Counted from the first letter of the stretch, positions 13,202-32,763 are shown. The stretch is 64,000 nucleotides of DNA from Chloroflexota bacterium (GCA_043754535.1 JAYUUN010000111.1:1-64000), one strand, 5' to 3'. Translations and numbers: made by a program. Notes: generated by a model not told the origin, from the letters alone.

Positions 13202-13222
13202 AACATCCTCTCCCTAATCTTC

Positions 13223-13972
13223 TAACAAGCCGTTGATCACTTGCATCAACTCGCTCATCTCCCCAATCACCGCCTCTGGCTGGGCTACCTGCGAGTCGGA
13301 GGGCTTACGCTGCGGATTATACCAGATCGCCCGCATCCCCGCTGCTTGCGCGCCCGCCACGTCGTAGGGCAGGCTATCGCCAACGTGGACGACCGTCTCC
13401 GCTGGGGGGTTGCCCAACGCAGCTAGCGCGGCCTGGTAGATGCGCTTATCTGTCTTGTAGTAGCCAGCACCCGCCGAGGTAATAACTGCGCCAAAGTAGC
13501 GGCGCAGGCCCAGCCCTTCTAGCGACCAGTCGAGAAAGGGCGGGTAGACCGCATTGCTGACCACGACGAGCGGTAGGTTGAGCGCGGCGATCTGCTCTAG
13601 CGCACCTGCTACCCCCGCTGTCGGCGCGATGTCAGATAGGTAGGCTCGTTGCGTCTGCGCCAGAGCCGCGCCAAGCTGGGTCGCACTCACGTCTGCGCCA
13701 AGCTGCTCGTTCAGCACGCGCACCAGGGCGGCCTGGGCCGAGACTTCACGCCCGCTGGCCTTCGCCTCCTTGCGGATGTCGGCGTAGAGCGCATCGGCTT
13801 CGGGGAAGACGCTATCGCCGCGGCTGCCAAGCAAGCCACGGACACAGCTATCATCGCTGCTGTTCGCCAAGTAGCGGAGAACATCACTGGCGAGAGTGTA
13901 GACCTCGTGCTGGAACCAGCTATCGCAGCGCACCAGCGTGTCGTGGAAGTCGAAGCTAATCGCCCTGATCAT
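13223..13972 (-). CDS. HAD-superfamily hydrolase
   Basis: FDFHDTL motif I, VGDSLPYDVAGA motif IV; ends at TTA 13223-13225 (standard-code stop 13214). Confidence 0.85.
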
Positions 13973-14026
13973 AGGGCTATTGTAGCACAAAGCGGGGGGA
14001 CGTGCCACCAACTTTTGGCGTAGAGT

Positions 14027-14649
14027 TCAGCCCTGCTTGTTGATCGCCTGCACCCACTGCACCAGTGTGTAGACTTCGCGCACGTTGCTAACACCCTTGA
14101 TGACCAGAGGTTGGGGAACATAGCTGCCACCTGTGTAGGAAACAGCGTGCCTAATCAGTGAGATAGAGCCGCTACCGCCTTGCCGCTCGTGCAGACGTAC
14201 TTCGTCAACTGCCTCCAGATTGAGATGAGATCGATCTCGTACTTGCTCTTCCCCACTATGCCCGCCGCAATCATCCGCCTGCTGGTCAAGCAGTAGTGCG
14301 TGCGGCTGACAGTGGCTAGCAAAGTCATGGAGCCAGCATGACCAGCAAGCAGGATGAGGAGTAGGGAGACCAGCACCACAATCAGTCCTGTACCACGCAC
14401 GTTGGTGTGCCAACCAAGTGGCGGCGTGCTAAGCATGTCGATCATGCCAATCGCGATGAAGGAGGCGGCCAGGAGCAAGCAGATGCCAACTATCAGCCAG
14501 TAGCCAACATGGGTTGACCTACCTGTAGCAGGTGATTGTCCCTGCCACAGCACCCGCTCCCCTGGTTCGAGGTAGCGGCTGATCCCACCTTTAGCGGGTA
14601 TCGGCTGAGGCGGTTGGGTTTTGGTCTGATCGCCCTTCACACGCTCCAT
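14027..14649 (-). pseudogene. Membrane protein with PH-like domain, frameshifted by a 5-bp duplication
   Basis: Own RBS (AGGAGAG) and ATG 14649; YLEPGERVLWQG, two TM helices, YCLTSRR; ATCTC duplicated at 14222-14231. Confidence 0.7.
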
Positions 14650-14661
14650 CTTGCTCTCTCC

Positions 14662-15333
14662 TAAATTGTTTAGTTCCGCCCGCCACTGGCGCAGGAGGGC
14701 CAAGCCCGCGCTCACTTTCGCTCGGTTCGCTGCGCCGTTGAGCCAATGACTCACTCCGCTGGGGTGAGGAAGCGGTAGGTAGCGGCGGCCCGCCTCGTCG
14801 GTGAAGCCCTGCCCAACCACCTTGTCCAGGCTGATCTGGCTTTTCTTCAGGCCTAGCGGTTGCAGGAAGGTGTTGATCGCCAGTAGGCCAACCATGATTA
14901 CTATACGCGGTTGCACCAGGCGAAGTTGCGCCTCCAGGTAAGGGCGGCAGAGGGCCTGCTCTGCCAGGCTGGGTACGCGGTCGCCCGCCGCCCCTGGTAG
15001 CCGACCGGGGTAGCACTTGGTGATCGAGGTTATGTACATGAAGTCGCGCCACTGCTCTGCTGGTTCGAGGCCAGCCTCGCGGAACCAGCCGACCAGCCGT
15101 CGATTGCTCCCCGGTGTGCCAAACGGTACATCGTTGACCAGGCCGCCGATCCCTGGTGCCTGACCACATAGCATCAGCGGCAGCGATGTGGGCCGAAAGG
15201 CGACTGGCGCAGCCCGCTCAAGGTAGCCCCCTACCTCGCAGCGGCGGCAACTGCGTATCACAGCGTGCAGGCCAGGCAGGTCGCCAAGCTGGTAGATCGC
15301 TGTGCTGTCGCGCCAAATCTCGTTGCTGTCCAT
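14662..15333 (-). CDS. Uracil-DNA glycosylase family protein
   Basis: CRRC, GQAPG, SITKCYPG, LPHPSG motifs; ends at TTA 14662-14664 (standard code fuses it to the next gene, to 14155). Confidence 0.85.
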
Positions 15334-15432
15334 CTTTGCTTTCCCAGGGGAGAAACTTTGCGCCTATTATACAGTATCGGCAGCTTGCCACGCCGTGGTA
15401 TACTGTCCCCATCTCCACCGAGGTGCAGCGCG

Positions 15433-17418
15433 ATGACCTATTCCCTCTCCCCCCGCCAGATGCAGAGCTTGCGGGCCGCCTGCGACGCACTGATCCCCAG
15501 CCTGCGCCGCGACGATGATCCCCACCGCTTCTTCGCCACTGGTGCGCTTGATCTGGGCGTGCCAGAGCGGGTAGCCGAGTTGATCGCTGCCTTGCCAAAC
15601 GCCGCCACGCGCAACGAGATCGGGCAGTTGCTGGCTGCGCTGGCGAACCCCGCTGCCAACATTGCCCTCAGCGGGACGGCGCGTCCCTTCCACCAGATGA
15701 GCATCGCTAAACGCGAAGCTACCCTGCGCCGCTGGGCGGTCAGCAAGCTGTTCCTGCGGCGTAAGGCGTTCCAGGCTCTCAAGCGGCTAGCAACCTTCGC
15801 TTACTACACCCAGGTTGACGAGGCGGGCAGCAGCCCTGCCTTGCGTGGGATCGGCTACCCAGGGCCGCTCAGTACCCTGGTGGTAGGCGAACGCACCTTG
15901 AAGCTGACGGAGATCGCGGAGGATAGCACGCTCGACTGCGACGCAGTGGTCGTTGGTAGCGGGGCGGGCGGTGGCGTAGTGGCAGCCAAGCTGGCGGCGG
16001 CTGGCAAGCAGGTGATAGTGCTTGAGATGGGCGGCTATTACGCCGAAGCAGACTTCACCTGGCGTGAACGCGACGGGCTGGCAAACCTCTACCTCGAAGG
16101 CGGGATGTGCCAGAGCCGCGACCTGGGCATGATGATCCTGGCTGGGCGCGCCCTCGGCGGTGGCACCCTTGTCAACTATAGCACCAGCTTTGCCACCCCC
16201 GATGGCGTGCGCGAGGAGTGGGCGGGCGAACACGGCCTGCCCCAGTTCACCACCGCTGCCTACAGCCGCGCCCTGGCCGAGGTCAGCGCACGGTCGGGGG
16301 TTAGCACTGCCTACAACACCCCCAGCTGCCGCGACCGCAAGCTGGCCGAGGGCTTGCAGAAGCTGAAGCTGCACAGCGGCCTGATGCCCCGCAACGTGCG
16401 CGACTGCTCGCAGGCCGAGGATTGTGGCTACTGCGTCTACGGTTGTCGGCGCGGGGCCAAGCAGTCTACGATGAAGACTTTTTTGCAAGACGCGAACGAC
16501 GCTGGGGCGCAGATCGTGGTCAACTGCCAGGTGGAGCGGGTGACGATCCAGCAGGGGCGGGCGACCGGGGTGGAGGCGACGGTTCGCAATGCCAGTGGTA
16601 CGTACAAGCTGCGGGTGCGGGCGAAGGCAGTAGTGGTGGCGGGGGGCAGCCTCCACAGCCCGGCCCTGCTGCTGCGCTCTGGCCTGAGCAACCCCAATAT
16701 TGGCAGGCACCTGCACCTGCACCCCTGCACTGGGGTTTGGGGCCGCTTCAGCGAGCCAGTCAACCCCTGGGGCGGTGTAATGCAGGCGGTCTACTCCGAC
16801 GAGTACGCCAACCAGGATGGACGTGGCTACGGCGTGAAGTTGGAGACCGCCCCGGTTCACCCCAGCGTGCTGCTGGTGGCGACCGCCTGGGAGAGCGGCG
16901 AGCAGCACAAATCGCTGATGGCCCAGTACCCCCACCTCACCCCCATCGGCCTGCTCACCCGCGACATTGGCAGTGGGCGGGTTAGCCTGGATCGCGCTGG
17001 TCAACCAGTGGTAGACTACAAGGTTAGCCCCTTCGACTGGGCGCACATCCGCCCTGCTATCGAGGGAGCAGCGAAGATACTGGCTGCCGCCGGTGCCGAG
17101 GAGGTGTTCAGCACCCAGAGCCGCTACGTAAACTGGCTGCCAGCCAGCCAGCCGCTTGAGGGCTTCCTGCGGCGAGTGGATGCTGCCGACTATGGGCCGT
17201 TGCAGATGGGCTTCCTCAGCTATCACCAGATGGGTAGCTGCCGCATGGGGGACAGTCCCCGCCGCTCGGTGGTCAACCCACAGAACGAGAGCCACGAGGT
17301 GCGCGGCCTGTTCGTCACCGACGCATCCACCTTCCCATCGGCTAGCGGGGTCAATCCAATGCTGACGATCATGGCAATAGCCGCCTGTGCGGGCGAGGTG
17401 ATTGTTAGCAAGCTATGA
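15433..17418 (+). CDS. GMC oxidoreductase (long-chain alcohol oxidase-like)
   Basis: VVGSGAGGGV FAD motif, GRALGGGTLVN, HQMGSCRMG, FPSASGVNPMLT. Confidence 0.9.
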   Translation: MTYSLSPRQMQSLRAACDALIPSLRRDDDPHRFFATGALDLGVPERVAELIAALPNAATRNEIGQLLAALANPAANIALSGTARPFHQMSIAKREATLRRWAVSKLFLRRKAFQALKRLATFAYYTQVDEAGSSPALRGIGYPGPLSTLVVGERTLKLTEIAEDSTLDCDAVVVGSGAGGGVVAAKLAAAGKQVIVLEMGGYYAEADFTWRERDGLANLYLEGGMCQSRDLGMMILAGRALGGGTLVNYSTSFATPDGVREEWAGEHGLPQFTTAAYSRALAEVSARSGVSTAYNTPSCRDRKLAEGLQKLKLHSGLMPRNVRDCSQAEDCGYCVYGCRRGAKQSTMKTFLQDANDAGAQIVVNCQVERVTIQQGRATGVEATVRNASGTYKLRVRAKAVVVAGGSLHSPALLLRSGLSNPNIGRHLHLHPCTGVWGRFSEPVNPWGGVMQAVYSDEYANQDGRGYGVKLETAPVHPSVLLVATAWESGEQHKSLMAQYPHLTPIGLLTRDIGSGRVSLDRAGQPVVDYKVSPFDWAHIRPAIEGAAKILAAAGAEEVFSTQSRYVNWLPASQPLEGFLRRVDAADYGPLQMGFLSYHQMGSCRMGDSPRRSVVNPQNESHEVRGLFVTDASTFPSASGVNPMLTIMAIAACAGEVIVSKL

Positions 17419-17462
17419 ACCAGCAGGCACGGGGCAGAGTATAAGCAAATCGGTGCAAACTC

Positions 17463-17491
17463 TTGCATTTTTGCACGGTTTCAGTTATACT
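17463..17491 (+). promoter_or_regulatory. sigma70 promoter of rpsP operon
   Basis: TTGCAT-17 nt-TATACT. Confidence 0.6.
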
Positions 17492-17584
17492 TCGCCCAAC
17501 GCCTGTGACCTGGCAGGCAATTGCATTCCTGTGTCAGAAAAAAGCGCGTGCCTGTTGGCCGCGTAAGAGGAGAGAGGGTTTACT

Positions 17585-17917
17585 TTGGTTAAGATTCGCC
17601 TGCGTCGTACTGGGGCCAAGAAGGCTCCCGCCTACCGTATCGTCGTTGCGGACAGCCGCAGCCCCCGTGATGGTCGCTTCATCGAGACTATCGGCATCTA
17701 CAACCCGCTGACCGAGCCGACCACCCTGCAAGTCAAGGCCGACCGCGCTACCTATTGGCTGGATAATGGCGCGCAAGCGAGCGACACCTGCGCCCGCCTG
17801 CTGACCAAAGCAGGCGTGCAGCACAGCACCCTGACCAAGCTGATGGGTGAACTTCGCAGCAAGATAGATGCCCACAACAGTCGGGGCGAAGCCGCCGCCG
17901 CTGCCGCCGCTGAGTAA
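17585..17917 (+). CDS. rpsP: 30S ribosomal protein S16
   Basis: [34 protein letters not shown]. Confidence 0.98.
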
Positions 17918-17956
17918 GTAGCCCGCCATGCTAGTGCGGCTAGAGAGGGTAGCAGG

Positions 17957-18184
17957 ATGAAGGATTTGGTCGAGTACATCGTCGCCCGCCTCGTCAACCA
18001 CCCGGATGCAGTCAAGGTGACAGAGATTCGCAGCGACTTCAACATCACCATCGAACTGACGGTTGACCCCGCTGATGTGGGTAAGATCATTGGCAAGGAT
18101 GGCCGGGTCGTCAAGGCGATCCGCGCCCTGGTCGGCATCATCGCCGCCCGTGAGGGTAAGCGCGTCAACCTGGAAGTGATGTAA
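17957..18184 (+). CDS. khpA: KH-domain RNA-binding protein
   Basis: DVGKIIGKDGR; conserved position after rpsP. Confidence 0.92.
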   Translation: MKDLVEYIVARLVNHPDAVKVTEIRSDFNITIELTVDPADVGKIIGKDGRVVKAIRALVGIIAAREGKRVNLEVM

Positions 18185-18186
18185 CT

Positions 18187-18744
18187 TTGGCAGAGAGCAA
18201 CCTACAACCGGAGTACCTGATCATTGGCCGCATTGCGGGGCCGTTCGGCGTGCGTGGCGAGATCAAGATGGAGGTGCTGGGCGACTTCCCAGACCGCTAT
18301 CGCACGCTCAAGAGCGTCACCCTCGGTGGTGGCTTCGATGGCACCCAGTCTCGCCGCCACTACAAGCTGCTTACCGTCCGCCAGCGCACAGTCAAGGATC
18401 AACTACTGATTCGCCTCGAAGGGGTTGCGACCCCTGAAGCGGTGGACACCCTGCGCGGCCAACTGGTGCAGATACCAATCAGCGAGGCCCCGCCGCTGGC
18501 CGAGGGCGAACACTACGTCTTCCAGGTAATCGGTCTGGATGTACGGTTGCAAGATGGTAGCAGCATCGGCAAGATCAAGGATGTCCTCCAGATGTCGGGC
18601 AACGATGTCTACCTGATCACCCCTAGCGACCCCGCCGCGAAGACGAAGGAGTACCTGATCCCCATCGTGGATGAGATCGTCAAGGAAGTGAACCCGGAGG
18701 AAGGCTACGTGGTAGTCGCCCCTATCGAGGGGATGTTGGAGTGA
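18187..18744 (+). CDS. rimM: Ribosome maturation factor RimM
   Basis: IGRIAGPFGVRGEIK, YVFQVIGL, EYLIP. Confidence 0.95.
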   Translation: MAESNLQPEYLIIGRIAGPFGVRGEIKMEVLGDFPDRYRTLKSVTLGGGFDGTQSRRHYKLLTVRQRTVKDQLLIRLEGVATPEAVDTLRGQLVQIPISEAPPLAEGEHYVFQVIGLDVRLQDGSSIGKIKDVLQMSGNDVYLITPSDPAAKTKEYLIPIVDEIVKEVNPEEGYVVVAPIEGMLE

Positions 18745-18819
18745 CGAGCCGAAAGAGATGAGGGAGCAGAGTTAGGCGCATCGTTTCGGTGCGCCTTCTG
18801 CATAGCAGAGGAGGCGGTA

Positions 18820-19323
18820 ATGGACTTGCGCGCAGAGGTGTTGACACGGACGCGGGAGTTGCTGGCGGATGGTAAGCCGCGCATGGCGAAAGAGATCGCC
18901 GCTGAACTGCTCAAGCGCGGGCTGGCGGGGGTGGACAAGTCGCTGGTCAACAGCGTGCTGGCAGTCGAGGGCAAGGGCCAGTTCAGCTACGACCGAACCA
19001 GCTACGCCTACACGCTGGCTGGGGCAGACGGTCAACCGCCAGCGACACCGCCCACAGACGGCGCGGCCACCGCCAGCCCGAAGCCGCAGCGCGAGCCAGC
19101 CGACCCCGCCCTGCGCCAGCGGGTGCTAGCTGCCACCCGCGAACTGCTGGCTGACGGCAAGCAGCGCATGAGCAAGGAGATCGCCGCTGAGTTGGCGAGG
19201 CGAGGGGTGCAGGCCGACAAGTCGCTAGTCAATAGCGTGCTGGCGGTCGAAGGCAAGGGTCAGTTCAGCTACGACCGCGAGAAGTACACCTACACACTGA
19301 ACCAGGAGGCGCAGCGTGGATGA
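18820..19323 (+). CDS. Protein with two tandem winged-helix-like domains
   Basis: Duplicated LRxxVLxxTRELLADGKxRMxKEIAAELxxRG...DKSLVNSVLAVEGKGQFSYDR; GGAGG RBS. Confidence 0.75.
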   Translation: MDLRAEVLTRTRELLADGKPRMAKEIAAELLKRGLAGVDKSLVNSVLAVEGKGQFSYDRTSYAYTLAGADGQPPATPPTDGAATASPKPQREPADPALRQRVLAATRELLADGKQRMSKEIAAELARRGVQADKSLVNSVLAVEGKGQFSYDREKYTYTLNQEAQRG

Positions 19324-20341
19324 GCAACTAGCAGGGCTGGCCGCTCGCTTTCGTTACTTCGCCGCCCAGGAGACGCAGGGTACTACCCCCCTCTATGAGC
19401 GGTTGGCGGTCAATATCGCTGGCGACCCGTTGGTACTTGCTATTGCTACTCACGCCCGCCCAGAGCAGCCGTTGCCGCACCTCTTCTTCGCTGTAGTGCA
19501 TTACCTGCTGCTCAAGCAGCCTGGTGCAGAGCTTGCCCGCTACTATCCAGACCTCAACGCTGCGCCAGCGTCGGACGATCCCTACCCAGCCTTTCAAGCC
19601 TTCTGCCTTGAACACCGGGCTGAGATCGAGGAGGTGATTGCCACGCGGCGGGTACAGACCAACGAGGTGAGCCGCTGTGCCTGTACGCTACCTGCTTTCG
19701 GGCTGGTAGCGGAGCGCACAGGGCAACCGCTTTGGCTGATCGAGGTGGGAACCAGCGCAGGCTTCAACCTGCTTTGGGATCAGTACGGCTACGACTATGG
19801 TAATGGCTTGCGCTGGGGCGACCTAACCTCGCCCCTACAGCTAAACTGTGAACTACGCGGTAAGCAACCATCCCTACCCGTCAAAATCCCATCAGTCTAC
19901 AATCGTATTGGCCTAGACCTTAACCCACTGGATGTTAACGACCCTGACACGGTACTCTGGCTGCGGGCATTGATCTGGCCCGAACTACGTGAGCGTGTGC
20001 TGCTGCTGCAACAAGCGATCAGCATGACACAGATGATGCAGCCGACCCTGATCGCGGGTGATGCGCTGGCAACCCTGCCAGGGGTGCTGCATGGCGCACC
20101 TACTGACGTAGCCCTAGTCGTCTACCACAGCTCCACCCTTAATCAGTTTCCAACCTCGTCGCAGGCGCACTTCAGGACGATCCTAGAGGAGATTGCCCTC
20201 AAACGCGACCTCTACCACATCAGCCTGGAGTGGGAGCAAAACAATTACGAACTGACACTAACCAGCTACCACCATGATAAGCAGGAGCGCGAGGTACTAG
20301 CTTACTGTAACGCGCATGGCAAGTGGCTAGAGTGGCTATTA
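19316..20341 (+). CDS. DUF2332 family protein
   Basis: VQTNEVSR, LIEVGTSAGFNL, GLDLNPLD, terminal HGKWLEWL; ends at TTA 20339-20341 (standard-code stop 20512). Confidence 0.85.
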
Positions 20342-20539
20342 CCCTTCTCTGCTCGACAGTGCGCTGCGGCGAGGGTTAGTAGCAGGGTTGTCAATGATGT
20401 CGTTGATGTAATCGCTCTCGATGGTATTCGGCACTGCCTGCACCCCCAGGAGGTGGAGGAAAGCGATGGAATAGGTGTTGTCCTTATGCGTATAGGTGAC
20501 AATACGCGGTAGCTTCATGACGTTAAAGGCATGACCCAC
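20339..20539 (-). pseudogene. C-terminal remnant of a RimJ/RimL-type GNAT acetyltransferase
   Basis: GHAFNVMKLPRIVTYTHKDNTYSIAFLHLLG resembles the GNAT C-terminal motif; no N-terminal part. Confidence 0.5.
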
Positions 20540-21474: not shown

Positions 21475-21822
21475 TAACTTCATCCTGCCGCGTAGCTCCT
21501 GCATCAGCCGTTCGAGCGGCACGTCGCAGGCGGCCAGCAACACTAGGGTGTGGTACCAGAGGTCGGCCACCTCCCAGGCGATCTCGTCGGGGTTGCCATT
21601 CTTGGCCGCGATGATCGTCTCCGCCGCCTCCTCACCCACCTTCTTGCCGATCTTGTCCACCCCATGCTCAAACAGGTAGCGAGTATAGCTACCCTCTGGC
21701 ATCTCTCGTTTGCGGCTCAAGATCGTGGCCCAGAGGTCAGCTATCGCCTGTACACTACCAGCATCCCCTTGTGGGGCAGGCTCAGGCTGGAGGTCGGTTG
21801 CGCCGTTCAACTTGTCACTCAT
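21475..21822 (-). CDS. hisE: Phosphoribosyl-ATP diphosphatase
   Basis: [30 protein letters not shown]; ends at TTA 21475-21477 (standard-code stop 21349). Confidence 0.93.
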
Positions 21823-25508: not shown

Positions 25509-25595
25509 TTGCCCCCCTGTAACTGTGGTAAGCATGGCAGGCATCTTGCCTGCTACTCTGCGGCTGTATTATAGCATAAGAGGAGGAGCAACCAT

Positions 25596-25805
25596 ATGGA
25601 TCGCGTACCCCTAAAGTCGGATCGTTTCAAAACCATCGCCTACGATATCCCCAACCACCTGCTAGAGGTCGTCTATGCCGACGGCAGCGTGCGTCAGTAC
25701 AAGAAGATTGAGCAGGAAGTTTATGAGCGGCTGCTGCACGCCGAACCGCCAGAAAGCTGCTTCGACGAGAAGATCGCAGGGCAGTACGAGGAGGAAGCAG
25801 GGTAG
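25596..25805 (+). CDS. KTSC domain protein
   Basis: MDRVPLKSDRFKTIAYD...LEVVYADGSVRQY; GAGGAG RBS. Confidence 0.8.
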   Translation: MDRVPLKSDRFKTIAYDIPNHLLEVVYADGSVRQYKKIEQEVYERLLHAEPPESCFDEKIAGQYEEEAG

Positions 25806-25900
25806 AGCCTTGTGTTTGCTGAACGGATGTGCTACAATCGGCCTGGACTAAACAACCAGGGCGCGGCTGGGACTGCGCCTTCTCTACACAAAGGAGAGGC

Positions 25901-26740
25901 ATGATGGATAACTCGATGGTAGCAACTACTTTCGCCGAGGTGAACGGCGCACAACTCGCCTACGAGGTCGCGGGCGATGGCTTTCCACTGGTGCTGATCC
26001 ACTCGGTGATCGCCGACATGACGATGTGGCAGCCGCAGTGGGCCGCCCTCAGCCAGCATTACCGCACGATCCGCTACGATCTGCGCGGCTTCGGGCAGTC
26101 GCTGCTCGTCCCAGAGCATACTTTTCGCCATACCGACGACCTTGCGGCCCTGCTTGACTACCTTGGTGTGGAGCGGGCGCACGTGATGGGTTGTTCGGGC
26201 GGTGGCAGTATTGCGCTCGACTTCACCCTCGTCTACCCACAGCTGGTCGCCAGCCTGATCTCCGAAGCAGGTGGCGTGGAAGGCGCGGATGTCGCCTGGG
26301 AGCAACCCCCTCAGTGGGACGCACTCGTTACTGCCTCCGAAGCGGGTGACCTTGAAGCTGCCGCCGAATTGAACGTACAGATTTGGGTGGATGGGGTTGG
26401 CCGCAGCCCGCAGGATGTTGACCCCGCTATCCGCAACCTGATCCGCGCTGCCGATGTGATCGCCCTCAAGAACGAAGCCGCCCGCAGCAAGTTGCAGATC
26501 GACCCTGAACCCGCCGCTGAACGGCTGACCGAAGTTACCGTTCCCACCCTCTATATTTATGGCGACTACGATCAGCTTGAAGTTGCCTCTACCGCTGACT
26601 ATGTGGCAAACAACGTACGGGGCGCACGCAAGCATCTCATCCCCGATACGGCGCACTTCCCCAACCTGGAGCAGCCAGACGAGTTCAACCGCGTCGTGCT
26701 TGAGTTCCTTCGGGATGTGGAGGAGAAACCACGCGCCTGA
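25901..26740 (+). CDS. Alpha/beta fold hydrolase
   Basis: YDLRGFGQS, GCSGGG nucleophile elbow, AHFPNLEQP. Confidence 0.9.
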   Translation: MMDNSMVATTFAEVNGAQLAYEVAGDGFPLVLIHSVIADMTMWQPQWAALSQHYRTIRYDLRGFGQSLLVPEHTFRHTDDLAALLDYLGVERAHVMGCSGGGSIALDFTLVYPQLVASLISEAGGVEGADVAWEQPPQWDALVTASEAGDLEAAAELNVQIWVDGVGRSPQDVDPAIRNLIRAADVIALKNEAARSKLQIDPEPAAERLTEVTVPTLYIYGDYDQLEVASTADYVANNVRGARKHLIPDTAHFPNLEQPDEFNRVVLEFLRDVEEKPRA

Positions 26741-26770
26741 GCCAACTGCTCCGTTCAGCCGCCTGCCAAC

Positions 26771-26800
26771 TTGACTCTGCCCCACGCCAGGTGCTATACT
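26771..26800 (+). promoter_or_regulatory. sigma70 promoter of tdh-kbl
   Basis: TTGACT-18 nt-(TG.)TATACT, followed by hairpin GGCGAACCT...AGGTTCGCC. Confidence 0.65.
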
Positions 26801-26873
26801 GGTTGGCGAACCTGCCACAACCGAGGTTCGCCTGCACCTGATGCACTCAACGAGGAGGGCATTTTTGCCAGCT

Positions 26874-27995
26874 ATGACTACTACTGAAGCCTCAACCAGC
26901 AGTCCCACTGCTACCCTGCTGACCCCCCGCCAAACCCACCTGCACCCCCAGCCCACCCGCACCATGCTGGCAGTGGTCAAGATCGCCACCGCCGCTGGCG
27001 CAGAGTTGCGCGAGATGCCGGTGCCAGTGCCGCAGCCGAACGAGGTGTTGATCAAGGTGCGGGCCACCTCAATTTGCGGCACCGACCTGCACATCTACAA
27101 CTGGGATGGCTGGGCGCAGGGGCGCATCAGCCACACGCCGCAGATCATGGGCCACGAGTTCTGTGGCGACATTGTAGCCGTGGGCGCGGATGTCCAAGAA
27201 CTGCAAGTGGGCGACTTCGTTTCGGTGGAGACGCACATCACCTGCGGCCACTGCTACCAGTGTCGCACCGGCCTGGCCCACATCTGCCAGAACGTGCAGA
27301 TCGTCGGTGTAGACCGTGATGGCTGCTTCGCCGAGTACATCACCGTCCCGGCTAGCGTCGCCTGGAAGAATGACCCGGCCATGCCGCTCGATCTCGCCAG
27401 CATCATGGAGCCGTTCGGCAATGCCGTACACACCACCTTCGCCCAGCCAGTCAGTGGCGAGTACGTAGCGGTCGTCGGTTGCGGGCCGCTCGGCTTGTGG
27501 GCGATAGGGATTGCTAAGGCAGCAGGTGCGGCGGGCGTAGCCGCAATCGATGTCAACCCCTTCCGCCTCAATATCGCCCGCCAGATGGGGGCTGACCTGG
27601 TGATCAACTCGCTAGAGCGCGATCCGGTTGCTGCTGTACAGGAGGCGAGCGGTGGCGTGGGTGCAGGTGTGGTATTGGAGATGAGCGGCAACCCGGCGGC
27701 CACCCGCCAGGCCTTTGCCATGTTGCGCTACGGCGGCAACCTCTCTATGCTTGGCACGCCGACCAGGCCGTTCGAGCTAGACTTTGCTGAGGCGATCATC
27801 TTCAAGGGGGCGCACGTGCATGGCATTACCGGGCGCAAGATATGGGGGACCTGGTTCCAGAGCCGCGCCCTCTTGCAGAACGGCCTGGTTGACCCGCGCC
27901 CAGTGATCACCCACCACTTGCCACTAGCCCGCTTCGCCGAGGCCTTCGAGTTGATGAACGAAGGCAAGGCAGCCAAGATCGTGATGACCCCTTTA
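26874..27995 (+). CDS. tdh: L-threonine 3-dehydrogenase
   Basis: ICGTDLHIY, GHEF, CGHCYQC..C, EPFGNAVH, GITGRK; ends at TTA 27993-27995 (standard-code stop 28055). Confidence 0.93.
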
Positions 27996-28023
27996 GCAGC
28001 CAGCAACAGGTACGAAGGAGACA

Positions 28024-29229
28024 GTGATGGACACTTTGCAGCGGATTGGTACTGACGTGTTGCGCGGCCACTTGCGCGAACAGCTTGACGGCTTGAAGCA
28101 GAAGCACCTCTACCGCGAACTGTTCGTGCTGGACAGCCAGCAGCAGCCGCGCAGCGTGATCAACGGCAAGCCGGTGATCAACCTCTCATCTAACAACTAT
28201 CTTGGCCTCGCCACCCACCCGCGGCTCAAGGCTGCGGCGTTGCAGGCGATTGAGCAGTATGGAGTGGGCAGCGGCGCAGTTCGCACTATCATTGGCACGA
28301 TGGATATGCACCAGCAGTTTGAGCAGGAGCTTGCCGCCTTCAAGCATACCGAGGCCGCCCTCACCTTTCAGTCTGGCTTCACCGCGAACCAGGCAGCGAT
28401 TGGCGCGGTCATGGCCGAGGGCGACGTGATCATCACCGACGAACTGAACCACGCCAGTATCATTGACGGGGTGCGCCTGGTCAAGTCGAGCCGCAAAATC
28501 TACAAGCATAGCGATATGGACTCGCTGGAACAGGCTCTCAAGGAGTGCGACAGCTTCCGCCTGAAGATGATCATCACCGATGGGGTGTTCAGCATGGACG
28601 GCGATATCGCCCACCTGCCAGAGATCGTCGAACTGGCCGAGCGTTACGGCGCGTTCGTCTACGTGGATGATGCTCACGCCAGTGGTGTCCTCGGCGACCA
28701 CGGAGCGGGGACAACCAGCCACTTTGGTCTCTACGGGCGGGTTGCCATGCAAATCGGTACCCTGAGCAAGGCAGTCGGCGTGCTGGGCGGCTACGTGGCG
28801 GGGATGCAAGAGTTGCGCGACATCATGATCCAGCGCGCCCGCCCCTTCCTGTTCAGCACCTCACACCCGCCTGCGGTTGTTGCCGCCTGCCGCGAGGCGA
28901 TCAAGCTGATGCTGGAGTCGAACGATCTGCACGAGAAGTTGTGGAGTAACACCCACTACTTCAAGGGGAAGCTGCAAGCGTTGGGCTTCGATACGGGCCG
29001 CAGCGAGACCCCGATCACTCCGGTGATCGTCGGCCCCAGCGCAATGGCCCAGAAACTGAGTGACCGCCTGTTCGCCGAGGGGGTGTTCGCCCAGGCTATC
29101 GTCTTCCCCACCGTCGCCGCCGACAAAGCCCGTGTCCGCACAATCATCACCGCCACCCACACCCAGCAGGACATGGACGAGGCCCTGACCACCTTCGAGC
29201 GGGTGGGCCACGAGTTGGGTATCATCTAG
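28024..29229 (+). CDS. kbl: Glycine C-acetyltransferase (2-amino-3-ketobutyrate CoA ligase)
   Basis: [31 protein letters not shown] lysine; adjacent to tdh. Confidence 0.9.
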
Positions 29230-29249
29230 CAGCACACAGCAGGTAGGTT

Positions 29250-29283
29250 GAGGGGCGCATCCGATGCTGGGTGCGCCCCTTTC
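29250..29283 (+). terminator. Intrinsic terminator after kbl
   Basis: AGGGGCGCATCC...GGGTGCGCCCCT followed by TT. Confidence 0.75.
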
Positions 29284-29333
29284 GACTTGTCGCCGAAAGC
29301 TGAAAGTTGCCCAAAGCTGGCTGTTGTAACGGC

Positions 29334-29362
29334 TTGACAGAGCATCTGAGATCGGTTATACT
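29334..29362 (+). promoter_or_regulatory. Consensus sigma70 promoter
   Basis: TTGACA-17 nt-TATACT, followed by hairpin TGACAGGA-AGAA-TCCTGTCA. Confidence 0.75.
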
Positions 29363-29449
29363 GTAGGTGACAGGAAGAATCCTGTCAGCAAACATATTTG
29401 ATGTTATATGTAACTAATAAACGTGTAATTAGATAAAGGAGTTTCCATC

Positions 29450-29590
29450 ATGGTAATCAGTGAAATTTGTGCTTGGATTCAAGTGGTTGTTTATATTTAC
29501 ATGGCAATAATATTGCTTAAGAGGCTTACAGAGCAGGAAATCAAACATATCAAACATATGAAGAGAACAATTCAAAGCTTGAAAGACTGA
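29450..29590 (+). CDS. 46-aa single-TM small protein (not in ORF track)
   Basis: AAAGGAG RBS; MVISEICAWIQVVVYIYMAIILLKRLTEQEIKHIKHMKRTIQSLKD; own promoter and terminator. Confidence 0.65.
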   Translation: MVISEICAWIQVVVYIYMAIILLKRLTEQEIKHIKHMKRTIQSLKD

Positions 29591-29607
29591 TAAGGGCGAG
29601 ACAGGAG

Positions 29608-29633
29608 GAGCCTCAAAAGCTCCTCTTTTTGTT
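29608..29633 (+). terminator. Intrinsic terminator after small protein
   Basis: AGGAGC-CTCAAAA-GCTCCT-CTTTTT. Confidence 0.6.
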
Positions 29634-30013
29634 GCCTCAACTTTTTGGTTTCCACTACCCCGCTCATTCAGATACCAATATGCCCATTCTATCATCATCT
29701 CCTCACAGGTCAGGTTAGCAATCAATGGTGCTGAACGAGGGGGGTAGATGATTGGCATCGCATCATAGGCTTCATCAAAAGCGTTGCTCACTGGATCAGT
29801 CACGTCGTATCCTGCTGTTTGTGGATAAACGCCAGCATCTCGCCGTTCAACAACTGGCGGCCAGACTCGTCAAGCTCAACGTCAGCGACAAGAACTCAGG
29901 AATGATCAATCACCCCACTACCTCAGCCTCGCTCATCAGCGGCTGCTCAGCGGCAATCAAGCGGCAGACCTGCGCGACAATGCGCCTGCGCTGGACGGCG
30001 GCAGGTGGGGTTG

Positions 30014-32302
30014 TTAGCGTGCTGACCATACGCCCCTGTGCAGCAGGCCGATGATCTCCAACAACGCCGCCACGCTCCAGGCCTGGGCGAAGCAGCCCTT
30101 CGGTGCGTGTGGCGCGTCCCCGTCGTAAATCTCTGCGACGGAGCCGAGGCCGAAGTCGCGCACAGCGTGGGCGAAGGGGGTGAGAACAGCGTGCAGGCTC
30201 GCCACCTTCCCCAGGCGATAGGCAGCGTGGGCGTAGCCGATCAGCGGCCACGGCCAGACGGTACCCTGGTGGTAAGCACCATCGCGCTGCTCTCGTCCAC
30301 CAGTGTAGATACCAACGTAGGCCGGGTCGCTGGGGGCGAGGGTTCGCAGGCCGTAGGGGGTTAGTAGCTGCGCGTCGGTCGCCTTCAGCACGGCGGCCAC
30401 CTGCGCGTCAGTCAGCAGGTCGGGTTCGAGACCGCAGGCAAACAGCATATTGGGGCGCAGGCTTGCGTCGTCGCCCGCTGGCCCATCAATCACGTCGTAG
30501 AGGTAGCTACCCTCGGCGTACCAATAGCGGGCGCGGAAGCTCGCCGCCGCCTGATCTGCCATCGCCTGGTAGTCAAGGTCGCCACCTACACCCATGCCCA
30601 CCGCCCGATAGCGGGCCATGATGCTGAGGGCGTGGTGCCAGAGGGCGTTAATCTCCACCGGCTTGCCAATGCGCGGCGTAACCACCCAGTCGCCCGCCTT
30701 TGCATCCATCCAGGTTAGCTGCACCCCTTCTTCGCCCGCGTAGAGCAGGCCGTCTCGCGCATCAACCTTGATCTTGTAGCGCGTCCCTTGCACGTGCCAG
30801 CGCACGATCTCGGCCAGGGTAGGATAGAGTTCGCGGGCCAACACGTCGCTACCGCTGCGTTGGCGGTGCTGCTCGATAGCGTGGAAGTACCAGAGGGTCG
30901 CGTCAACCGTGTTATACTCTGGGGTCTGGTCTGCGTCAGGGAAGAAGTTAGGCAACATCCCCTGGTCAACGTGGCGGGCGAAGGTGCGTAGGATGCTAGC
31001 CGCCTCAGCCAGCCTGCCCGTCTCCAGGCAGAGGCCTGGCAGGGCGATCATCGTGTCGCGCCCCCAGTCGGTAAACCAGGGGTAGCCTGCGATCACCGTC
31101 ACACCGCTATCCTGCTGCTCCGCCCCCTCCACGCTCACGGTAGGATGGATAGAAGCTGAGCGGCGGGCGACGATAAACTGATCGGCGGCTTCGATCAACT
31201 CTGTCCGCAGGCGGCCCACGCCGTCCTCGTCCAACGGCTGCTGGATTGGCGGCAACTGCTCAAAACCTGCGACCAGATTGGGGATGGGGAAGCGGTGCTG
31301 GCGGGGAGCGGCAGCGGTGGCGAAGCGTTCTGCCCCGCGCACATCCAACTCCACCTCACCTAGCTTCTCATCTGGCACGCTGTGCGCCTCGTCCAGAGCG
31401 GCGGCTACATCCTCGCTCGGCTGCCGCGCCTCTACGTCGTCTGGTAGCAGCATCCTGGCCTGGACTAGCAACTGCATTGGGCGGCTCTGCGCTGCCGCCA
31501 ATTGGCCCGCCCCGTCGAACGGTATGTTGGCTGGGGCTTCGCTGCTAACCACCAGCGTCACGCTCTCCCCCGGCTTGAGGCTGAGGCGGATGGTGCAGGG
31601 GGCATAGAGGTCTTCCTTGTAGTCCAACCCACGCTCCTGCTCGGCCCGGTAGACGAAGTTCCAGTACCACACGCCGACGGGTAGCACCTCGGCCTGGCGG
31701 TCGAGCAGGAGGTAGTAGGGGACTGCCTCTGGGTAAGCTCGCAACTGACCACCGCTAACTGCCCCAGCCCGTAGCTCTGGCGGCAGGCTGGCGAGGGGCG
31801 TAAAGAGGAAGTGCCACTCGTTTGCGCCAGTAGTCAGCTTGTGGTAGTCGCGGAAGTTGGCAAGTGGGCGCAGGGTGAGAGTGATCGGCGCGTCGGCAGC
31901 GGCGAGGGTGTAGCGCAGGTAAGTAGTATTCTGCCCCCGGGCCATCCAGATGCGCTTCTCCAGGCGGATGCCTGCCATCTTGTAGCTGAAGCTAGCCACC
32001 CCGCGATCCAGGGTGAACTCGTCCAGATGAACAAAGCCAGTAGGCAGCGTCCTACCAGGGTACTCGTTGGTGCCAAGATAGTAGGTACTACCGTCACTAA
32101 CCAGTTCTTCGTCCACCTTCGCCAGCATAACTAGGCGATCTACTGGCGGGCGCAGCGCGGCGCAGAGCAGGGCGTGATAGCGGCGGGTGTTGGCTCCGGT
32201 GATCGTGCCGCTGGCAAAGCCGCCGATGCCGTTCGTCACCAGCCACTCGCGCTTGATCGCCTGCTCAAAGTCGGCGGTCGTCTCCCGTCCAATCCTGATC
32301 AT
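30014..32302 (-). CDS. Amylo-alpha-1,6-glucosidase (archaeal-type glycogen debranching enzyme)
   Basis: REWLVTNGIGGFAS, IAGYPWFTDWGRDT, YHQGTVWPW, AQAWSVA. Confidence 0.92.
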   Translation of the reverse strand: MIRIGRETTADFEQAIKREWLVTNGIGGFASGTITGANTRRYHALLCAALRPPVDRLVMLAKVDEELVSDGSTYYLGTNEYPGRTLPTGFVHLDEFTLDRGVASFSYKMAGIRLEKRIWMARGQNTTYLRYTLAAADAPITLTLRPLANFRDYHKLTTGANEWHFLFTPLASLPPELRAGAVSGGQLRAYPEAVPYYLLLDRQAEVLPVGVWYWNFVYRAEQERGLDYKEDLYAPCTIRLSLKPGESVTLVVSSEAPANIPFDGAGQLAAAQSRPMQLLVQARMLLPDDVEARQPSEDVAAALDEAHSVPDEKLGEVELDVRGAERFATAAAPRQHRFPIPNLVAGFEQLPPIQQPLDEDGVGRLRTELIEAADQFIVARRSASIHPTVSVEGAEQQDSGVTVIAGYPWFTDWGRDTMIALPGLCLETGRLAEAASILRTFARHVDQGMLPNFFPDADQTPEYNTVDATLWYFHAIEQHRQRSGSDVLARELYPTLAEIVRWHVQGTRYKIKVDARDGLLYAGEEGVQLTWMDAKAGDWVVTPRIGKPVEINALWHHALSIMARYRAVGMGVGGDLDYQAMADQAAASFRARYWYAEGSYLYDVIDGPAGDDASLRPNMLFACGLEPDLLTDAQVAAVLKATDAQLLTPYGLRTLAPSDPAYVGIYTGGREQRDGAYHQGTVWPWPLIGYAHAAYRLGKVASLHAVLTPFAHAVRDFGLGSVAEIYDGDAPHAPKGCFAQAWSVAALLEIIGLLHRGVWSAR

Positions 32303-32409
32303 GGTGGTACCCTCCTCCTCACAGTACAATGCAGAAGCCGCAAACACATTGCTTGCGGCTGGTTCATCCTATCATGAGCAAAAGGTGCGCCACGCCCCTC
32401 TTTGTTAGC

Positions 32410-32763
32410 TAACTTGGAGGAACTGGCCTTCAGCACGTTCCCCTGCTCGTCGATCACGACGCGGGCTATCTTGTGCAGGTCTGCACCACTGGCCGTTCGC
32501 ACGCTCTTGCGCCAGGTAACGGTGTAGTGGTCGCTGATTGCACTGGCTGCCGTGCTGTAGCTGCTAGCCCGCTCGCGCACTGCCGCCTTGTAATCCTCGG
32601 CGTGGCCGTTTAGCTTGGTGAGCAGGGCAGGGCTAGGGGCCTGCGGCTGGTAGGCTGTGACGCGCCGCTCTGCGTCGGCCATCTCCGGCCAGTGGTCAGT
32701 GGCATAACCCTGTACGCGCTCCAAAATCTCGGCGGGGAGGTTGAGGTTACGGTCATCAAACAT
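32410..32763 (-). CDS. Hypothetical protein
   Basis: Coding-like ORF ending ...VLKASSSK at TTA 32410-32412, followed by a hairpin (standard-code stop 32299). Confidence 0.65.

What the first reader, a model, noticed from the sequence alone, without database searches (positions are those of the whole stretch)
13214..32412. UUA appears to act as a stop signal: candidate new bacterial genetic code
Seen: a by-eye scan of about 50 CDSs across the window found no internal in-frame TTA, including Leu-rich membrane proteins, lower-GC genes and the AT-rich 46-aa ORF, while CTA, TTG and CTT are common. Six genes have their first in-frame TTA at or next to the expected C-terminus: HAD (13223), UDG (14662), DUF2332 (20339), hisE (21475), tdh (27993) and a hypothetical (32410). 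Read as Leu, five run on through terminators, RBSs or neighbouring genes. Established: UUA=stop is known from some mitochondria (Thraustochytrium, NCBI table 23); I know of no bacterial case. Inference: either a release factor reads UUA, or UUA is unassigned and the ribosome slips +1 onto UAG (5 of 6 sites are TTA-G). Random indel errors would not be confined to stop codons. Caveat: TTA is naturally rare at this GC content, so position is the main evidence, not absence.
Basis: partly seen in the sequence, partly recalled or inferred. Interest (0 to 1): 0.96.

Follow-up and report, generated by a model that had tools for sequence, protein, structure and literature searches.

The report
Leucine codon TTA ends bacterial genes
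In this uncultured Chloroflexia bacterium and its family the leucine codon TTA is never used inside genes and instead sits where genes end, so it most likely works as a fourth stop codon, a change of the genetic code described so far only for mitochondria and plastids.

Summary
In my crude gene set (2,810 ORFs, 1.08 million codons) TTA occurs 235 times. Of these, 169 lie within 30 codons of the next standard stop. The median distance to that stop is 17 codons, against at least 179.5 for every other sense codon. Coding signal drops right after TTA. No Pfam or NCBIfam match runs across a TTA, except one hisE alignment that goes 2 residues past it. Many long "fused" ORFs split at TTA into two ordinary genes. 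Orthologues in sister genomes have TAA, TAG or TGA where this genome has TTA, and the reverse.

The pattern is shared by all five genomes of the family. It is absent from four other genomes of the same order. Contigs from four other studies show no indel at the six sites.

No tRNA-Leu(UAA) was found in the window's genus. The sister genus keeps one, which is unexplained.

A +1 slip onto TAG cannot be general, because 38% of terminal TTAs are followed by T or C.

RF2 carries family-specific changes in its codon-recognition loop, but parts of that change occur elsewhere without TTA stops.

My searches found no paper on a bacterial case. This scan earlier noted TTA stops in several phages (unchecked).

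The parts
13223..13225 (-). TTA that ends the HAD-family hydrolase gene (about 13223..13972/14011, minus strand). Read as Leu, only 2 more codons follow before TAG.
   Evidence: NCBIfam TIGR02253 reaches 221/221 at residue 256 of the 265-aa frame; TTA is codon 263. An RBS-like GGAGAGG and the GTG start of the next gene follow.
14662..14664 (-). TTA that ends the family-4 uracil-DNA glycosylase gene (14662..15333, minus strand). Table 11 fuses it to the next gene into a 392-aa ORF.
   Evidence: Table 23 splits the ORF into 223 aa plus 164 aa (14155..14649, ATG start). TTA is followed by GGAGAGAGCAAG ATG. The Pfam UDG match ends at residue 199; TTA is codon 224.
20339..20341 (+). TTA (followed by C) that ends the DUF2332 gene (19316..20341, plus strand). 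Table 11 adds 56 codons.
   Evidence: Pfam PF10094 reaches 334/334 at residue 340; TTA is codon 342.
21475..21477 (-). TTA that ends hisE, phosphoribosyl-ATP diphosphatase (21475..21822, minus strand, 115 aa). Table 11 adds 41 codons.
   Evidence: The domain model TIGR03188 reaches 84/84 at residue 110; TTA is codon 116. One alignment (NF001611) runs 2 residues past it.
27993..27995 (+). TTA that ends tdh, L-threonine 3-dehydrogenase (start 26841, 26865 or later, to 27995, plus strand). The table-11 tail of 19 codons overlaps the start of the next gene (28024..29229).
   Evidence: NCBIfam PRK05396 reaches 339/341 at residue 383 of the 404-aa frame; TTA is codon 385.
32410..32412 (-). TTA that ends a 123-aa hypothetical gene (32410..32781, minus strand). 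The table-11 tail of 36 codons runs over the start of the next gene (30014..32329/32347, minus strand).
   Evidence: No family match, so this site rests on position alone.

Best explanation
In this family of uncultured Chloroflexia (the window's genome G000, its sister species G001, and three genomes of a second genus, G002-G004), UUA has stopped coding for leucine inside genes and marks the end of the coding sequence. It behaves as a fourth stop codon and closes about 7% of the genes in G000.

Shown by comparison:
- Internal TTA has been purged, and CTA is 2-5 times commoner than in related families.
- TTA sits where homologues end.
- TTA is interchangeable with TAA, TAG and TGA between orthologues.
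- The window's genus has no tRNA that pairs with UUA.

Inferred: a class-I release factor recognises UUA in the A site and releases the peptide. The candidate is RF2. Within the class, its codon-recognition loop carries a family-specific combination: HRL to HRM, SPF to SPY, and RRHTSF to RRQTSF. RF1's recognition motifs are unchanged. This step is the weakest.
For: Position of TTA:
- TTA is 0.22 per 1000 codons (235 of 1,076,721). Its median distance to the table-11 stop is 17 codons, against at least 179.5 for the other 60 sense codons.
- From TTA to the next standard stop the median is 17 codons. From a standard stop to the next one it is 18-22 codons, which is what untranslated sequence would give.

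Coding signal:
- Codon score falls from 0.21 to -0.12, and GC3 from 0.75 to 0.62, across TTA. An ATA control stays at 0.25 to 0.26.

TTAs far from the stop:
- There are 33 TTAs more than 60 codons from the stop. Most are followed by an RBS plus a start codon, and four lie upstream of the likely start.
- Pfam on 20 of them: none has a domain across TTA.
- TTA falls between thiolase and a hexapeptide transferase, IDH and a GNAT, APH and RNase PH, SDR, PmbA and TldD, and GT-C and GH35. It also lies just after the ends of DnaB_C and CobW_C.

Protein-model ends in the window:
- tdh reaches 339/341 two residues before TTA.
- DUF2332 reaches 334/334 two residues before TTA.

Sites followed by T or C:
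- 13 of the 20 genes had NCBIfam hits, and none of those runs past TTA.
- Galactokinase reaches 384/388 at residue 382, with TTA at codon 386.
- SDR PRK07806 reaches 244/248 at residue 244, with TTA at codon 249.

Orthologue ends:
- G001 has TTA where G000 has TAA (95% identity, no unaligned tails).
- G002 has TTA where G000 has TGA (tails 0/0 and 1/1).
- G004 has TAA or TAG where G000 has TTA (tails 0/0 and 1/1).
- Six TTA ends are conserved between G000 and G001.

Distribution:
- G001-G004 have TTA at 0.23-0.73 per 1000 codons, mostly within 60 codons of a stop.
- G006, G008, G009 and G016, of the same order, have 0.64-2.15 per 1000 spread through genes.

tRNA:
- ARAGORN with and without introns finds no tRNA(UAA) in G000, and Infernal's tRNA hits add no Leu tRNA beyond ARAGORN's four.
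- BLAST with two tRNA-Leu(UAA) queries finds none in G001.
- The interval of G000 syntenic to the sister genus's tRNA gene has no tRNA.

Not an assembly error:
- Contigs of four runs from four other studies cover 13100-32900 at about 99% identity. None of the 8 listed indels is at a TTA site.

Release factors:
- Three of the eight family-specific RF2 substitutions lie in the recognition loop (5 of 5 family genomes against 25 others).
- The PxT and GRIHTS motifs of RF1 are unchanged.
- The +4/+5 context of TTA (G 0.55, C 0.45) resembles TGA and TAA, not TAG.
- In organelles, UUA stops are tied to changes in the RF2-type codon-binding region (passages of PMC12574857).
Against: tRNA in the sister genus:
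- G002, G003 and G004 each keep a well-folded tRNA with anticodon UAA and discriminator A73. It shows one compensatory stem change and a conserved C31-A39 mismatch.
- They also have tRNA-Leu(CAA), so the UAA tRNA is not needed to read UUG.
- UUA may therefore still be read as Leu to some degree in that genus.

RF2:
- The link is weak. RRQT[ST]F occurs in 52 of 401 Chloroflexota genomes.
- G263 has a single RF2 with SPF plus RRQ and uses TTA normally: 66 in 56,661 codons, spread through genes.
- Family f49 has SPY plus RRQ without terminal TTA clustering, although TTA is almost absent there.
- The serine substitution reported for organellar RF2 is not present: the loop reads SPY and TSF.

Limits of the data:
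- G000 is 88.9% complete and G001 about 87%, so a missing tRNA or an extra factor cannot be excluded.
- My gene calls are crude (codon score, greedy overlap removal).
- One hisE alignment runs 2 residues past TTA.
- A 131-codon ORF in G002 has a TTA with coding-like sequence on both sides.
- There is no protein or ribosome-profiling evidence.
Confidence: 0.72

Rival explanations
1. UUA is unassigned, not a true stop. With no cognate tRNA the ribosome stalls at UUA. The protein is then freed by a +1 slip onto the overlapping UAG or UAA, or by a rescue or drop-off route, without a factor that recognises UUA.
For: No tRNA(UAA) was found in G000 or G001. Of 182 terminal TTAs, 98 are followed by G and 14 by A, so 62% overlap TAG or TAA in the +1 frame. 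G at +4 is commoner than after TGA or TAA: 0.55 against 0.40 and 0.37. A standard stop within 5 codons is slightly commoner after TTA: 23% against 14-20%.
Against: 70 of the 182 sites (38%) are followed by T or C. For these the +1 frame has no early stop (median 20 codons, as in controls), yet protein models end at them. About 7% of genes in G000, and 12 of 63 genes sampled in G003, end on TTA. They include dnaB, tdh, hisE, murD and an isocitrate/isopropylmalate-type dehydrogenase. That is hard to reconcile with stalling and tagging by tmRNA, which the genome encodes. Only RF1 and RF2 carry a GGQ domain, so no ArfB-like protein was found. A truly unassigned codon should be avoided at gene ends too.
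Confidence: 0.13
2. Dual meaning. UUA is mainly a stop, but in the sister genus (and perhaps under some conditions) it is also read as Leu by the retained tRNA(UAA). This would give a share of C-terminally extended or fused proteins, making that genus an ambiguous intermediate stage of the reassignment.
For: G002-G004 hold a conserved tRNA(UAA) with A73, one compensatory stem change and an unusual C31-A39 mismatch. They also have tRNA-Leu(CAA). They show the same terminal TTA pattern and the same RF2 loop. One possible internal TTA was seen in G002.
Against: Nothing shows that the tRNA is expressed or charged. TTA-ended genes are commonest in a genome that has the tRNA: 12 of 63 genes in G003. 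That would mean many extended proteins if decoding were efficient. In the window's own genus no such tRNA was found.
Confidence: 0.08
3. TTA is still an ordinary but very rare Leu codon. The tails and fusions are real proteins, and the apparent ends are a by-product of strong avoidance of a poorly decoded codon (bldA-like).
For: TTA is rare in GC-rich genomes in general. The sister genus has a tRNA(UAA). The assemblies are incomplete.
Against: Avoidance does not place a codon at gene ends. Coding signal stops at TTA. No protein-family match crosses a TTA in the 46 frames scanned, apart from one hisE alignment that runs 2 residues past it. An RBS and a start codon follow TTA inside the 'fusions'. 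Orthologues swap TTA with standard stops. Other genomes of the class at 58-64% GC use TTA internally at 0.93-2.15 per 1000 codons.
Confidence: 0.03
4. Artefact: systematic sequencing or assembly error, or mis-binning, turns TAG into TTAG or otherwise creates TTA at gene ends.
For: Five of the six window sites read TTAG. The genome is a 132-contig metagenome bin.
Against: The pattern occurs in five separately assembled species genomes. Contigs from four other studies show no indel at the six sites. 38% of terminal TTAs are not followed by G or A. An error that hit TAG regardless of frame would also break genes internally. Six TTA ends are conserved between G000 and G001.
Confidence: 0.01

Closest known systems
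UUA as a stop codon in labyrinthulean (Thraustochytrium) mitochondria, NCBI table 23, and in peDinoflagellate plastids (passages of PMC12574857; table 23 as named by the tool)
   Same: The same codon makes the same Leu-to-stop change. TTA is found only at 3' ends as defined by homologues. No cognate tRNA(UAA) is present. Earlier 'gene fusions' are explained by read-through annotation. An RF2-type factor with an altered codon-binding region is the suspected reader.
   Different: Those are tiny organelle genomes with imported factors; this is a free-living bacterium with about 3.9 Mb assembled and about 200 TTA-ended genes. The organellar RF2 change is a substitution of an invariant serine ('Ser204' to Ala, Gly or Cys). 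Here both serines of the loop are kept, and the changes are L to M, F to Y and H to Q. One genus here still has a tRNA(UAA).
UUA and UUG as stop codons in mitochondria of Marsupiomonadales and Pseudoscourfieldia (Pycnococcus), read by a modified mtRF1a (passages of PMC12574857)
   Same: A Leu-to-stop reassignment, with the codon seen only at gene ends and the cognate tRNA lost.
   Different: There both UUR codons are stops and RF1 is the altered factor. Here TTG stays an abundant internal codon (14 per 1000), and RF1's recognition motifs are unchanged.
Unassigned codons in bacteria: CGG in Mycoplasma capricolum (cited in PMC8629427); AGA and AUA in Micrococcus luteus (recalled, no call)
   Same: A sense codon has lost its tRNA and vanished from the inside of genes in a bacterium.
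   Different: Unassigned codons are simply missing. Here the codon is used about 211 times, and only at gene ends.
TTA-ended genes in uncultured phages noted earlier in this scan (e1-5887295, e1-6008229, e1-5887306, e1-5843062, e1-6008203, e1-6096360, e1-5889162, e1-6046615)
   Same: The same pattern is reported: TTA never inside genes, and TTA where relatives have ordinary stops.
   Different: Those are phage fragments whose hosts were not named in the notes I saw, and the notes are unchecked AI notes. I found no link to this genome.
Possible CGA sense-to-stop change in two archaeal assemblies (KACI preprint 10.64898/2026.04.02.715157, passages)
   Same: A prokaryotic sense codon is absent from recognisable domains and lacks its tRNA. 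A stop meaning is suspected, and Codetta-type tools cannot call it.
   Different: That is a different codon and domain of life. The preprint leaves it open and gives no positional evidence in the passages I read.

Membership tests
Sense-to-stop UUA code (table 23 type) | The codon is absent from internal, conserved positions of coding sequences | tested here: met
   235 TTAs in 1.08 million codons, 199 of them within 60 codons of the stop. The 33 remaining first-TTA sites lie at gene boundaries, before starts, or in unannotated ORFs. No domain crosses TTA in the 20 of them scanned. The window has 0 internal TTAs in 17,883 codons.
Sense-to-stop UUA code (table 23 type) | The codon sits where homologues have their C-terminus or a standard stop | tested here: met
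   Model ends at TTA: tdh, DUF2332, galactokinase, SDR, Iso_dh-type dehydrogenase, thiolase, DnaB_C, CobW_C. TTA aligns with TAA, TAG or TGA at identical alignment ends in orthologue pairs with G001-G004.
Sense-to-stop UUA code (table 23 type) | No cognate tRNA (anticodon UAA) | tested here: inconclusive
   Not found in G000 or G001 (assemblies 87-89% complete). Present in G002, G003 and G004.
Sense-to-stop UUA code (table 23 type) | The RF2-type factor has the invariant serine ('Ser204') of the codon-binding region substituted, as in Labyrinthulea and peDinoflagellates | tested here: not met
   The family's RF2 reads ...RISPYDSQHRRQTSF..., so both serines are kept. I did not map which serine 'Ser204' is. 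Other substitutions in the loop are present.
Sense-to-stop UUA code (table 23 type) | Peptide release at UUA shown by protein ends or by assay | not testable with these tools
   No RNA run was listed and no proteome is available here.
Unassigned (nonsense) codon | The codon is essentially unused anywhere in reading frames, gene ends included | tested here: not met
   211 of 2,836 gene segments end on TTA.
Frameshift-to-stop (as proposed for human mitochondrial AGA/AGG; recalled, no call) | A one-base slip at the codon always brings a standard stop into the A site | tested here: not met
   112 of 182 terminal TTAs overlap TAG or TAA in the +1 frame; 70 do not. For those 70 the next +1 or -1 stop is no closer than in controls.
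bldA-type rare-UUA regulation (Streptomyces; PMC10732093, listing and start of the abstract only) | A tRNA-Leu(UAA) is present and UUA lies inside a subset of genes | tested here: not met
   No tRNA(UAA) in this genus. TTA is terminal, not internal.

The most novel reading that the evidence does not exclude
This family of Chloroflexia is the first free-living cellular lineage found to have turned a sense codon into a stop codon, giving four stop codons. The window's genus has completed the change by losing the tRNA. The sister genus is caught in an ambiguous intermediate state, with a weakened tRNA(UAA) competing against a release factor that now accepts U at the second codon position. Bacteria with this code may be the hosts of the TTA-stop phages seen elsewhere in this scan.
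Probability: 0.6. Interest if true: 0.95.

Novelty: new variant of a known kind. Interest (0 to 1): 0.92.

Why it matters
The bacterial code changes listed in the code-screen papers I read (passages) turn a stop codon into a sense codon or swap one amino acid for another. A sense codon becoming a stop is described for mitochondria and, since 2025, for one group of plastids (PMC12574857, passages).

A free-living lineage with about 200 TTA-ended genes per genome would show that this kind of change can also happen in a large genome. It offers a natural series (tRNA lost, tRNA kept, standard code) for testing models of codon reassignment. It also points to a release factor that may accept a pyrimidine at codon position 2.

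The practical effect is immediate. Table 11 annotation of these genomes gives about 7% of proteins false tails or false fusions. One such fusion was already reported in this scan as a novel architecture (e1-3585524). Codetta-type screens cannot detect this class of change, as their authors say themselves.

Tried and rejected
- **Pyrrolysine or amber suppression.** ARAGORN called a 'tRNA-Pyl(cta)' at C31:4032-4124. It is 93 nt and lies beside a CRISPR array, and Infernal's tRNA model does not hit it. I treat it as a false call.
- **H to Q in RF2 as sufficient cause.** Rejected: G263 has it and uses TTA normally. Y plus Q occurs in family f49 with almost no TTA at all, which is uninformative. 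A strict pattern search for tRNA-Leu(UAA) in four f49 genomes hit one of four. This is inconclusive because the pattern is strict.
- **RF2 autoregulation.** The prfB frameshift site CTT TGA C is kept in the family, so nothing was learned about UUA.
- **Extra release factor.** Only two RF-1 domain genes were found in G000.
- **Link to TTA-stop phages.**
  - A look-up of 1.2 kb of a CRISPR array in the scan's notes found nothing.
  - Two spacers against viral contigs gave 0 matches each. About 70 further spacers were not searched.
  - The scan's look-up for relatives' stretches found nothing.
- **Expression.** No RNA holder was listed.
- **Coverage in other runs.** The 750-base stretch 29281-30030 is skipped by contigs of three other runs. 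This does not bear on the finding.
- **Timed-out script.** A first all-ORF blastp script timed out and was re-run on a smaller set.
- **Literature.** Searches found no paper on TTA/UUA as a stop in bacteria. Supplements of the Codetta and KACI papers were not opened and could hold '?' calls for TTA in these genomes.

Full report
**What the window is.** The window is the first 64 kb of contig C111 of a 3.87-Mb, 132-contig metagenome bin. The bin has 61.4% GC and is 88.9% complete with 0.7% contamination. Earlier notes of this scan call it an uncultured Chloroflexia bacterium.

**The observation in the window.**
Five are followed by G and one (20339) by C.
- My crude gene set for the window (48 genes, 17,883 codons) has in-frame TTA only at 13223, 14662, 20339 and 27993.
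- hisE (21475) and the hypothetical (32410) are short ORFs that end on TTA under table 23.
- Under table 23 the 392-aa 'UDG' ORF splits into a 223-aa UDG and a 164-aa gene. The second has its own GGAGAG and ATG directly after the TTA.
- The full-length tdh model reaches position 339 of 341 two residues before the TTA. The DUF2332 model reaches 334 of 334 two residues before its TTA.
- For hisE the domain model ends at residue 110 and TTA is codon 116. One alignment runs two residues past it.

**The whole genome.**
- I called genes crudely: stop-to-stop ORFs of at least 100 codons, scored by codon usage trained on long ORFs, with overlaps removed greedily. This gave 2,810 genes and 1,076,721 codons.
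- TTA is the rarest sense codon, at 235 occurrences, or 0.22 per 1000.
- 169 of the 235 lie within 30 codons of the table-11 stop, against 84,131 of 1,076,486 for all other codons (Fisher p about 1e-130). The median distance to the stop is 17 codons. For the other 60 sense codons the lowest median is 179.5.
- Across the first TTA of a gene the mean codon score falls from 0.21 to -0.12, and GC3 from 0.75 to 0.62. Across ATA both stay flat.
- From TTA to the next standard stop the median is 17 codons. From a standard stop to the next one it is 18-22. So what follows TTA looks like untranslated sequence, with at most a slight excess of close back-up stops.
- Split at TTA, 211 of 2,836 gene segments (7.4%) end on TTA, 1,089 on TAG, 869 on TGA and 667 on TAA.

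**The exceptions.**
- In 33 genes the first TTA lies more than 60 codons from the stop.
- Four of these TTAs lie within the first 17 codons, probably upstream of the true start.
- Most of the rest are followed within a few codons by an RBS-like motif and a start codon.
- I scanned 20 of them against Pfam, and none has a domain across the TTA.
- TTA falls between thiolase and a hexapeptide transferase, isocitrate/isopropylmalate dehydrogenase and a GNAT, APH and RNase PH, and SDR, PmbA and TldD. It also falls between a GT-C-like protein and a GH35 enzyme, and just after the ends of DnaB_C and CobW_C.
- The GT-C/GH35 ORF is the one that an earlier report of this scan (e1-3585524) described as a young read-through fusion. 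With TTA as a stop it is two ordinary genes.
- Four of the 20 (L157, L160, L170, L171) had no usable match and stay unresolved. One (a type I restriction subunit with low GC3) may be a foreign or decaying gene.

**Is it the +1 slip?**
- Of 182 terminal TTAs, 98 are followed by G, 14 by A, 44 by T and 26 by C.
- For the T and C classes the next stop in the +1 or -1 frame is no closer than after ordinary stops.
- I took the 20 best-scoring of the 33 T- or C-followed TTA genes that had TTA at codon 200 or later and a tail of 10-60 codons, and scanned them against NCBIfam. 13 had hits at E below 1e-20, and none of the alignments runs past TTA.
- Galactokinase (384/388 at residue 382, TTA at codon 386) and an SDR (244/248 at residue 244, TTA at codon 249) end on it. 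DUF2332 in the window is a further TTA-C case.
- A slip onto TAG or TAA therefore cannot be the general mechanism, although G at +4 is enriched (0.55).

**Relatives.**
- The genome collection holds one sister species (G001) and three genomes of a second genus (G002-G004) in the same family. It also holds 35 genomes of other families of the order.
- On 77-100 kb from each, G001-G004 have TTA at 0.23-0.73 per 1000 codons, mostly within 60 codons of a stop.
- G006, G008, G009 and G016 have 0.64-2.15 per 1000, spread through genes.
- CTA is 10-12 per 1000 in the family against 2-5 in the outgroups. This fits replacement of internal TTA by CTA.
- In blastp pairs of four-stop ORFs, TTA in one genome aligns with TAA, TAG or TGA in the other at identical C-terminal ends. 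For example, G001 has TTA where G000 has TAA at 95% identity; G002 has TTA where G000 has TGA; G004 has TAA or TAG where G000 has TTA. Six TTA ends are conserved between G000 and G001.
- Many pairs with G002-G004 differ at their ends for standard stops too (22-37 'different' against 8-12 'same'). Only the same-end cases carry weight.

**Not an artefact.** Logan contigs of four runs from four other studies hold near-identical strains across 13100-32900. None of the 8 listed indels is at a TTA site. Of the substitutions only 40 of 153 were shown, so I cannot say that no run has a substitution at a site.

**tRNAs.**
- ARAGORN finds Leu anticodons CAA, CAG, GAG and UAG in G000, and no UAA. Allowing introns changes nothing. 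Infernal's 44 tRNA hits over threshold add no further Leu tRNA.
- tRNA-Leu(UAA) is present in many outgroup genomes.
- Unexpectedly, G002, G003 and G004 each have a tRNA with anticodon UAA. It resembles the outgroup tRNA-Leu(UAA) in the D and T arms. It differs in having another acceptor stem, A73, a conserved C31-A39 mismatch and one compensatory change at 29-41.
- These genomes also have tRNA-Leu(CAA).
- The flanks of the gene map to G000 contig C57. There the interval holds a TPR-like ORF and no tRNA.
- G001 has no homologue of the gene.
- So the tRNA looks lost in the window's genus and retained, for a reason I cannot name, in the sister genus.

**Release factors.**
- G000 has two genes with the RF-1 domain, RF1 and RF2. 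RF2 is cut at its 5' end by a contig end.
- RF1's PxT and GRIHTS motifs are unchanged in the family.
- In RF2, 3 of the 8 positions where all five family genomes differ from at least 90% of 25 outgroup genomes lie in the recognition loop. They are HRL to HRM, SPF to SPY, and RRHTSF to RRQTSF.
- From memory, the histidine corresponds to the residue that stacks on the second stop-codon base. The paper passages I read confirm only that the serine of SPF contacts that base and that the matching histidine of RF1 is essential (PMC5776981).
- The link is weak. RRQT[ST]F occurs in 6 of 401 genomes of the class and 52 of 401 of the phylum.
- G263 has SPF plus RRQ as its only RF2 and uses TTA normally.
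- Family f49 has SPY plus RRQ, but at 69-72% GC it has almost no TTA to judge by: 6 in about 108,000 codons.
- The serine substitution reported for organellar RF2 at UUA stops is not present.
- The +4/+5 context of TTA resembles that of TGA and TAA, the RF2 codons. The same letters also fit T-TAG-C.

**Comparison with what is known.**
- Passages of PMC12574857 describe UUA as a stop in labyrinthulean mitochondria and peDinoflagellate plastids, tied to RF2-type changes. They describe UUA and UUG as stops in two green-algal mitochondrial lineages, tied to mtRF1a.
- That paper calls the plastid case the first sense-to-stop change outside mitochondria. It also notes that earlier 'fused genes' there came from reading the new stops through.
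- The Codetta paper and the KACI preprint (passages only) do not mention TTA or UUA. Both say that stops cannot be inferred by their approach.
- Five literature searches found no bacterial case.
- This scan has earlier notes of TTA-ended genes in at least eight phage windows (unchecked). My three attempts to link them to this genome found nothing.

**Verdict.**
- That TTA ends coding sequences is, I think, close to certain.
- That it does so as a genuine stop read by a release factor is the best reading. The statement as a whole has confidence 0.72.
- Claims that use the unpublished genomes G007, G012, G015 and G034 are limited to outgroup counts: 3 of the 25 outgroup RF2 sequences and 4 of the outgroup tRNA loci. 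No core claim depends on them.

Noticed in passing
G000 contig C1:32852-37573 (locus L152): The 1,573-aa 'GT-C / GH35 read-through fusion' of the earlier report e1-3585524 has its only in-frame TTA at codon 784. An RBS-like GGAGG and an ATG follow, and the GH35 domain starts at residue 800. With TTA as a stop it is two genes.
   Followed up: partly
G000 contig C81:29237-32683 (locus L153): After a glycosyltransferase gene that ends on TTA (codon 461), a B3/4 domain (534-688) and a complete tyrosyl-tRNA synthetase (782-1142) lie in one frame. No stop or TTA lies between them. This may be a real B3/4-TyrRS fusion.
   Followed up: partly
G002:C96, G003:C600, G004:C292 (loci L129, L107, L124): The sister genus's tRNA(UAA) has a conserved C31-A39 mismatch (a 4-bp anticodon stem) and an acceptor stem unlike that of outgroup tRNA-Leu(UAA). 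A 2026 paper links 4-bp anticodon stems to altered decoding (PMC13092985, passages).
   Followed up: partly
G000 contig C31:4032-4124: ARAGORN calls a 'tRNA-Pyl(cta)' here, 170 bases from a CRISPR array. Infernal's tRNA model does not hit it. Probably a false call.
   Followed up: yes
G000 contigs C27:57-1833, C31:4297-5079, C50:43116-44814, C62:32758-33634, C112:8435-8761: CRISPR arrays on five contigs, about 75 spacers in all and at least three repeat types. Two spacers had no exact match in viral contigs.
   Followed up: partly
G000 contig C83:30677-30861: A tRNA-like match below threshold (28.3 bits) that spans 185 bases, next to other tRNA genes. ARAGORN reads it as tRNA-Arg(tcg) with a 102-base insertion. 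It may be an intron-bearing or a broken tRNA.
   Followed up: partly
window 29280-30031 and 29226: Contigs of three other runs skip the 750 bases between these positions and carry 22 other letters in their place. The same runs have an extra TAG right at the stop of the gene 28024..29229.
   Followed up: no
window 14221: All four other runs lack 5 bases here, inside the 164-aa gene downstream of UDG and 66 bases before its stop. Either this assembly or those strains have a shifted C-terminus.
   Followed up: no
G000 contig C45:29768-32440 (locus L158): The replicative helicase DnaB carries an intein with a LAGLIDADG domain and ends on TTA (codon 827).
   Followed up: no
Chloroflexota genomes, e.g. 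G263:C192, G619:C1, G593:C7: RF2 with Gln in place of the conserved His of RRHTSF is common in other families of the phylum: 52 of 401 genomes sampled. What this does to stop-codon reading there is open.
   Followed up: partly
G000 whole genome: TAG is the commonest stop (1,172 of 2,810 genes) and is followed by C in 553 cases. The tRNA set has Arg(gcg) and no Arg(acg).
   Followed up: no
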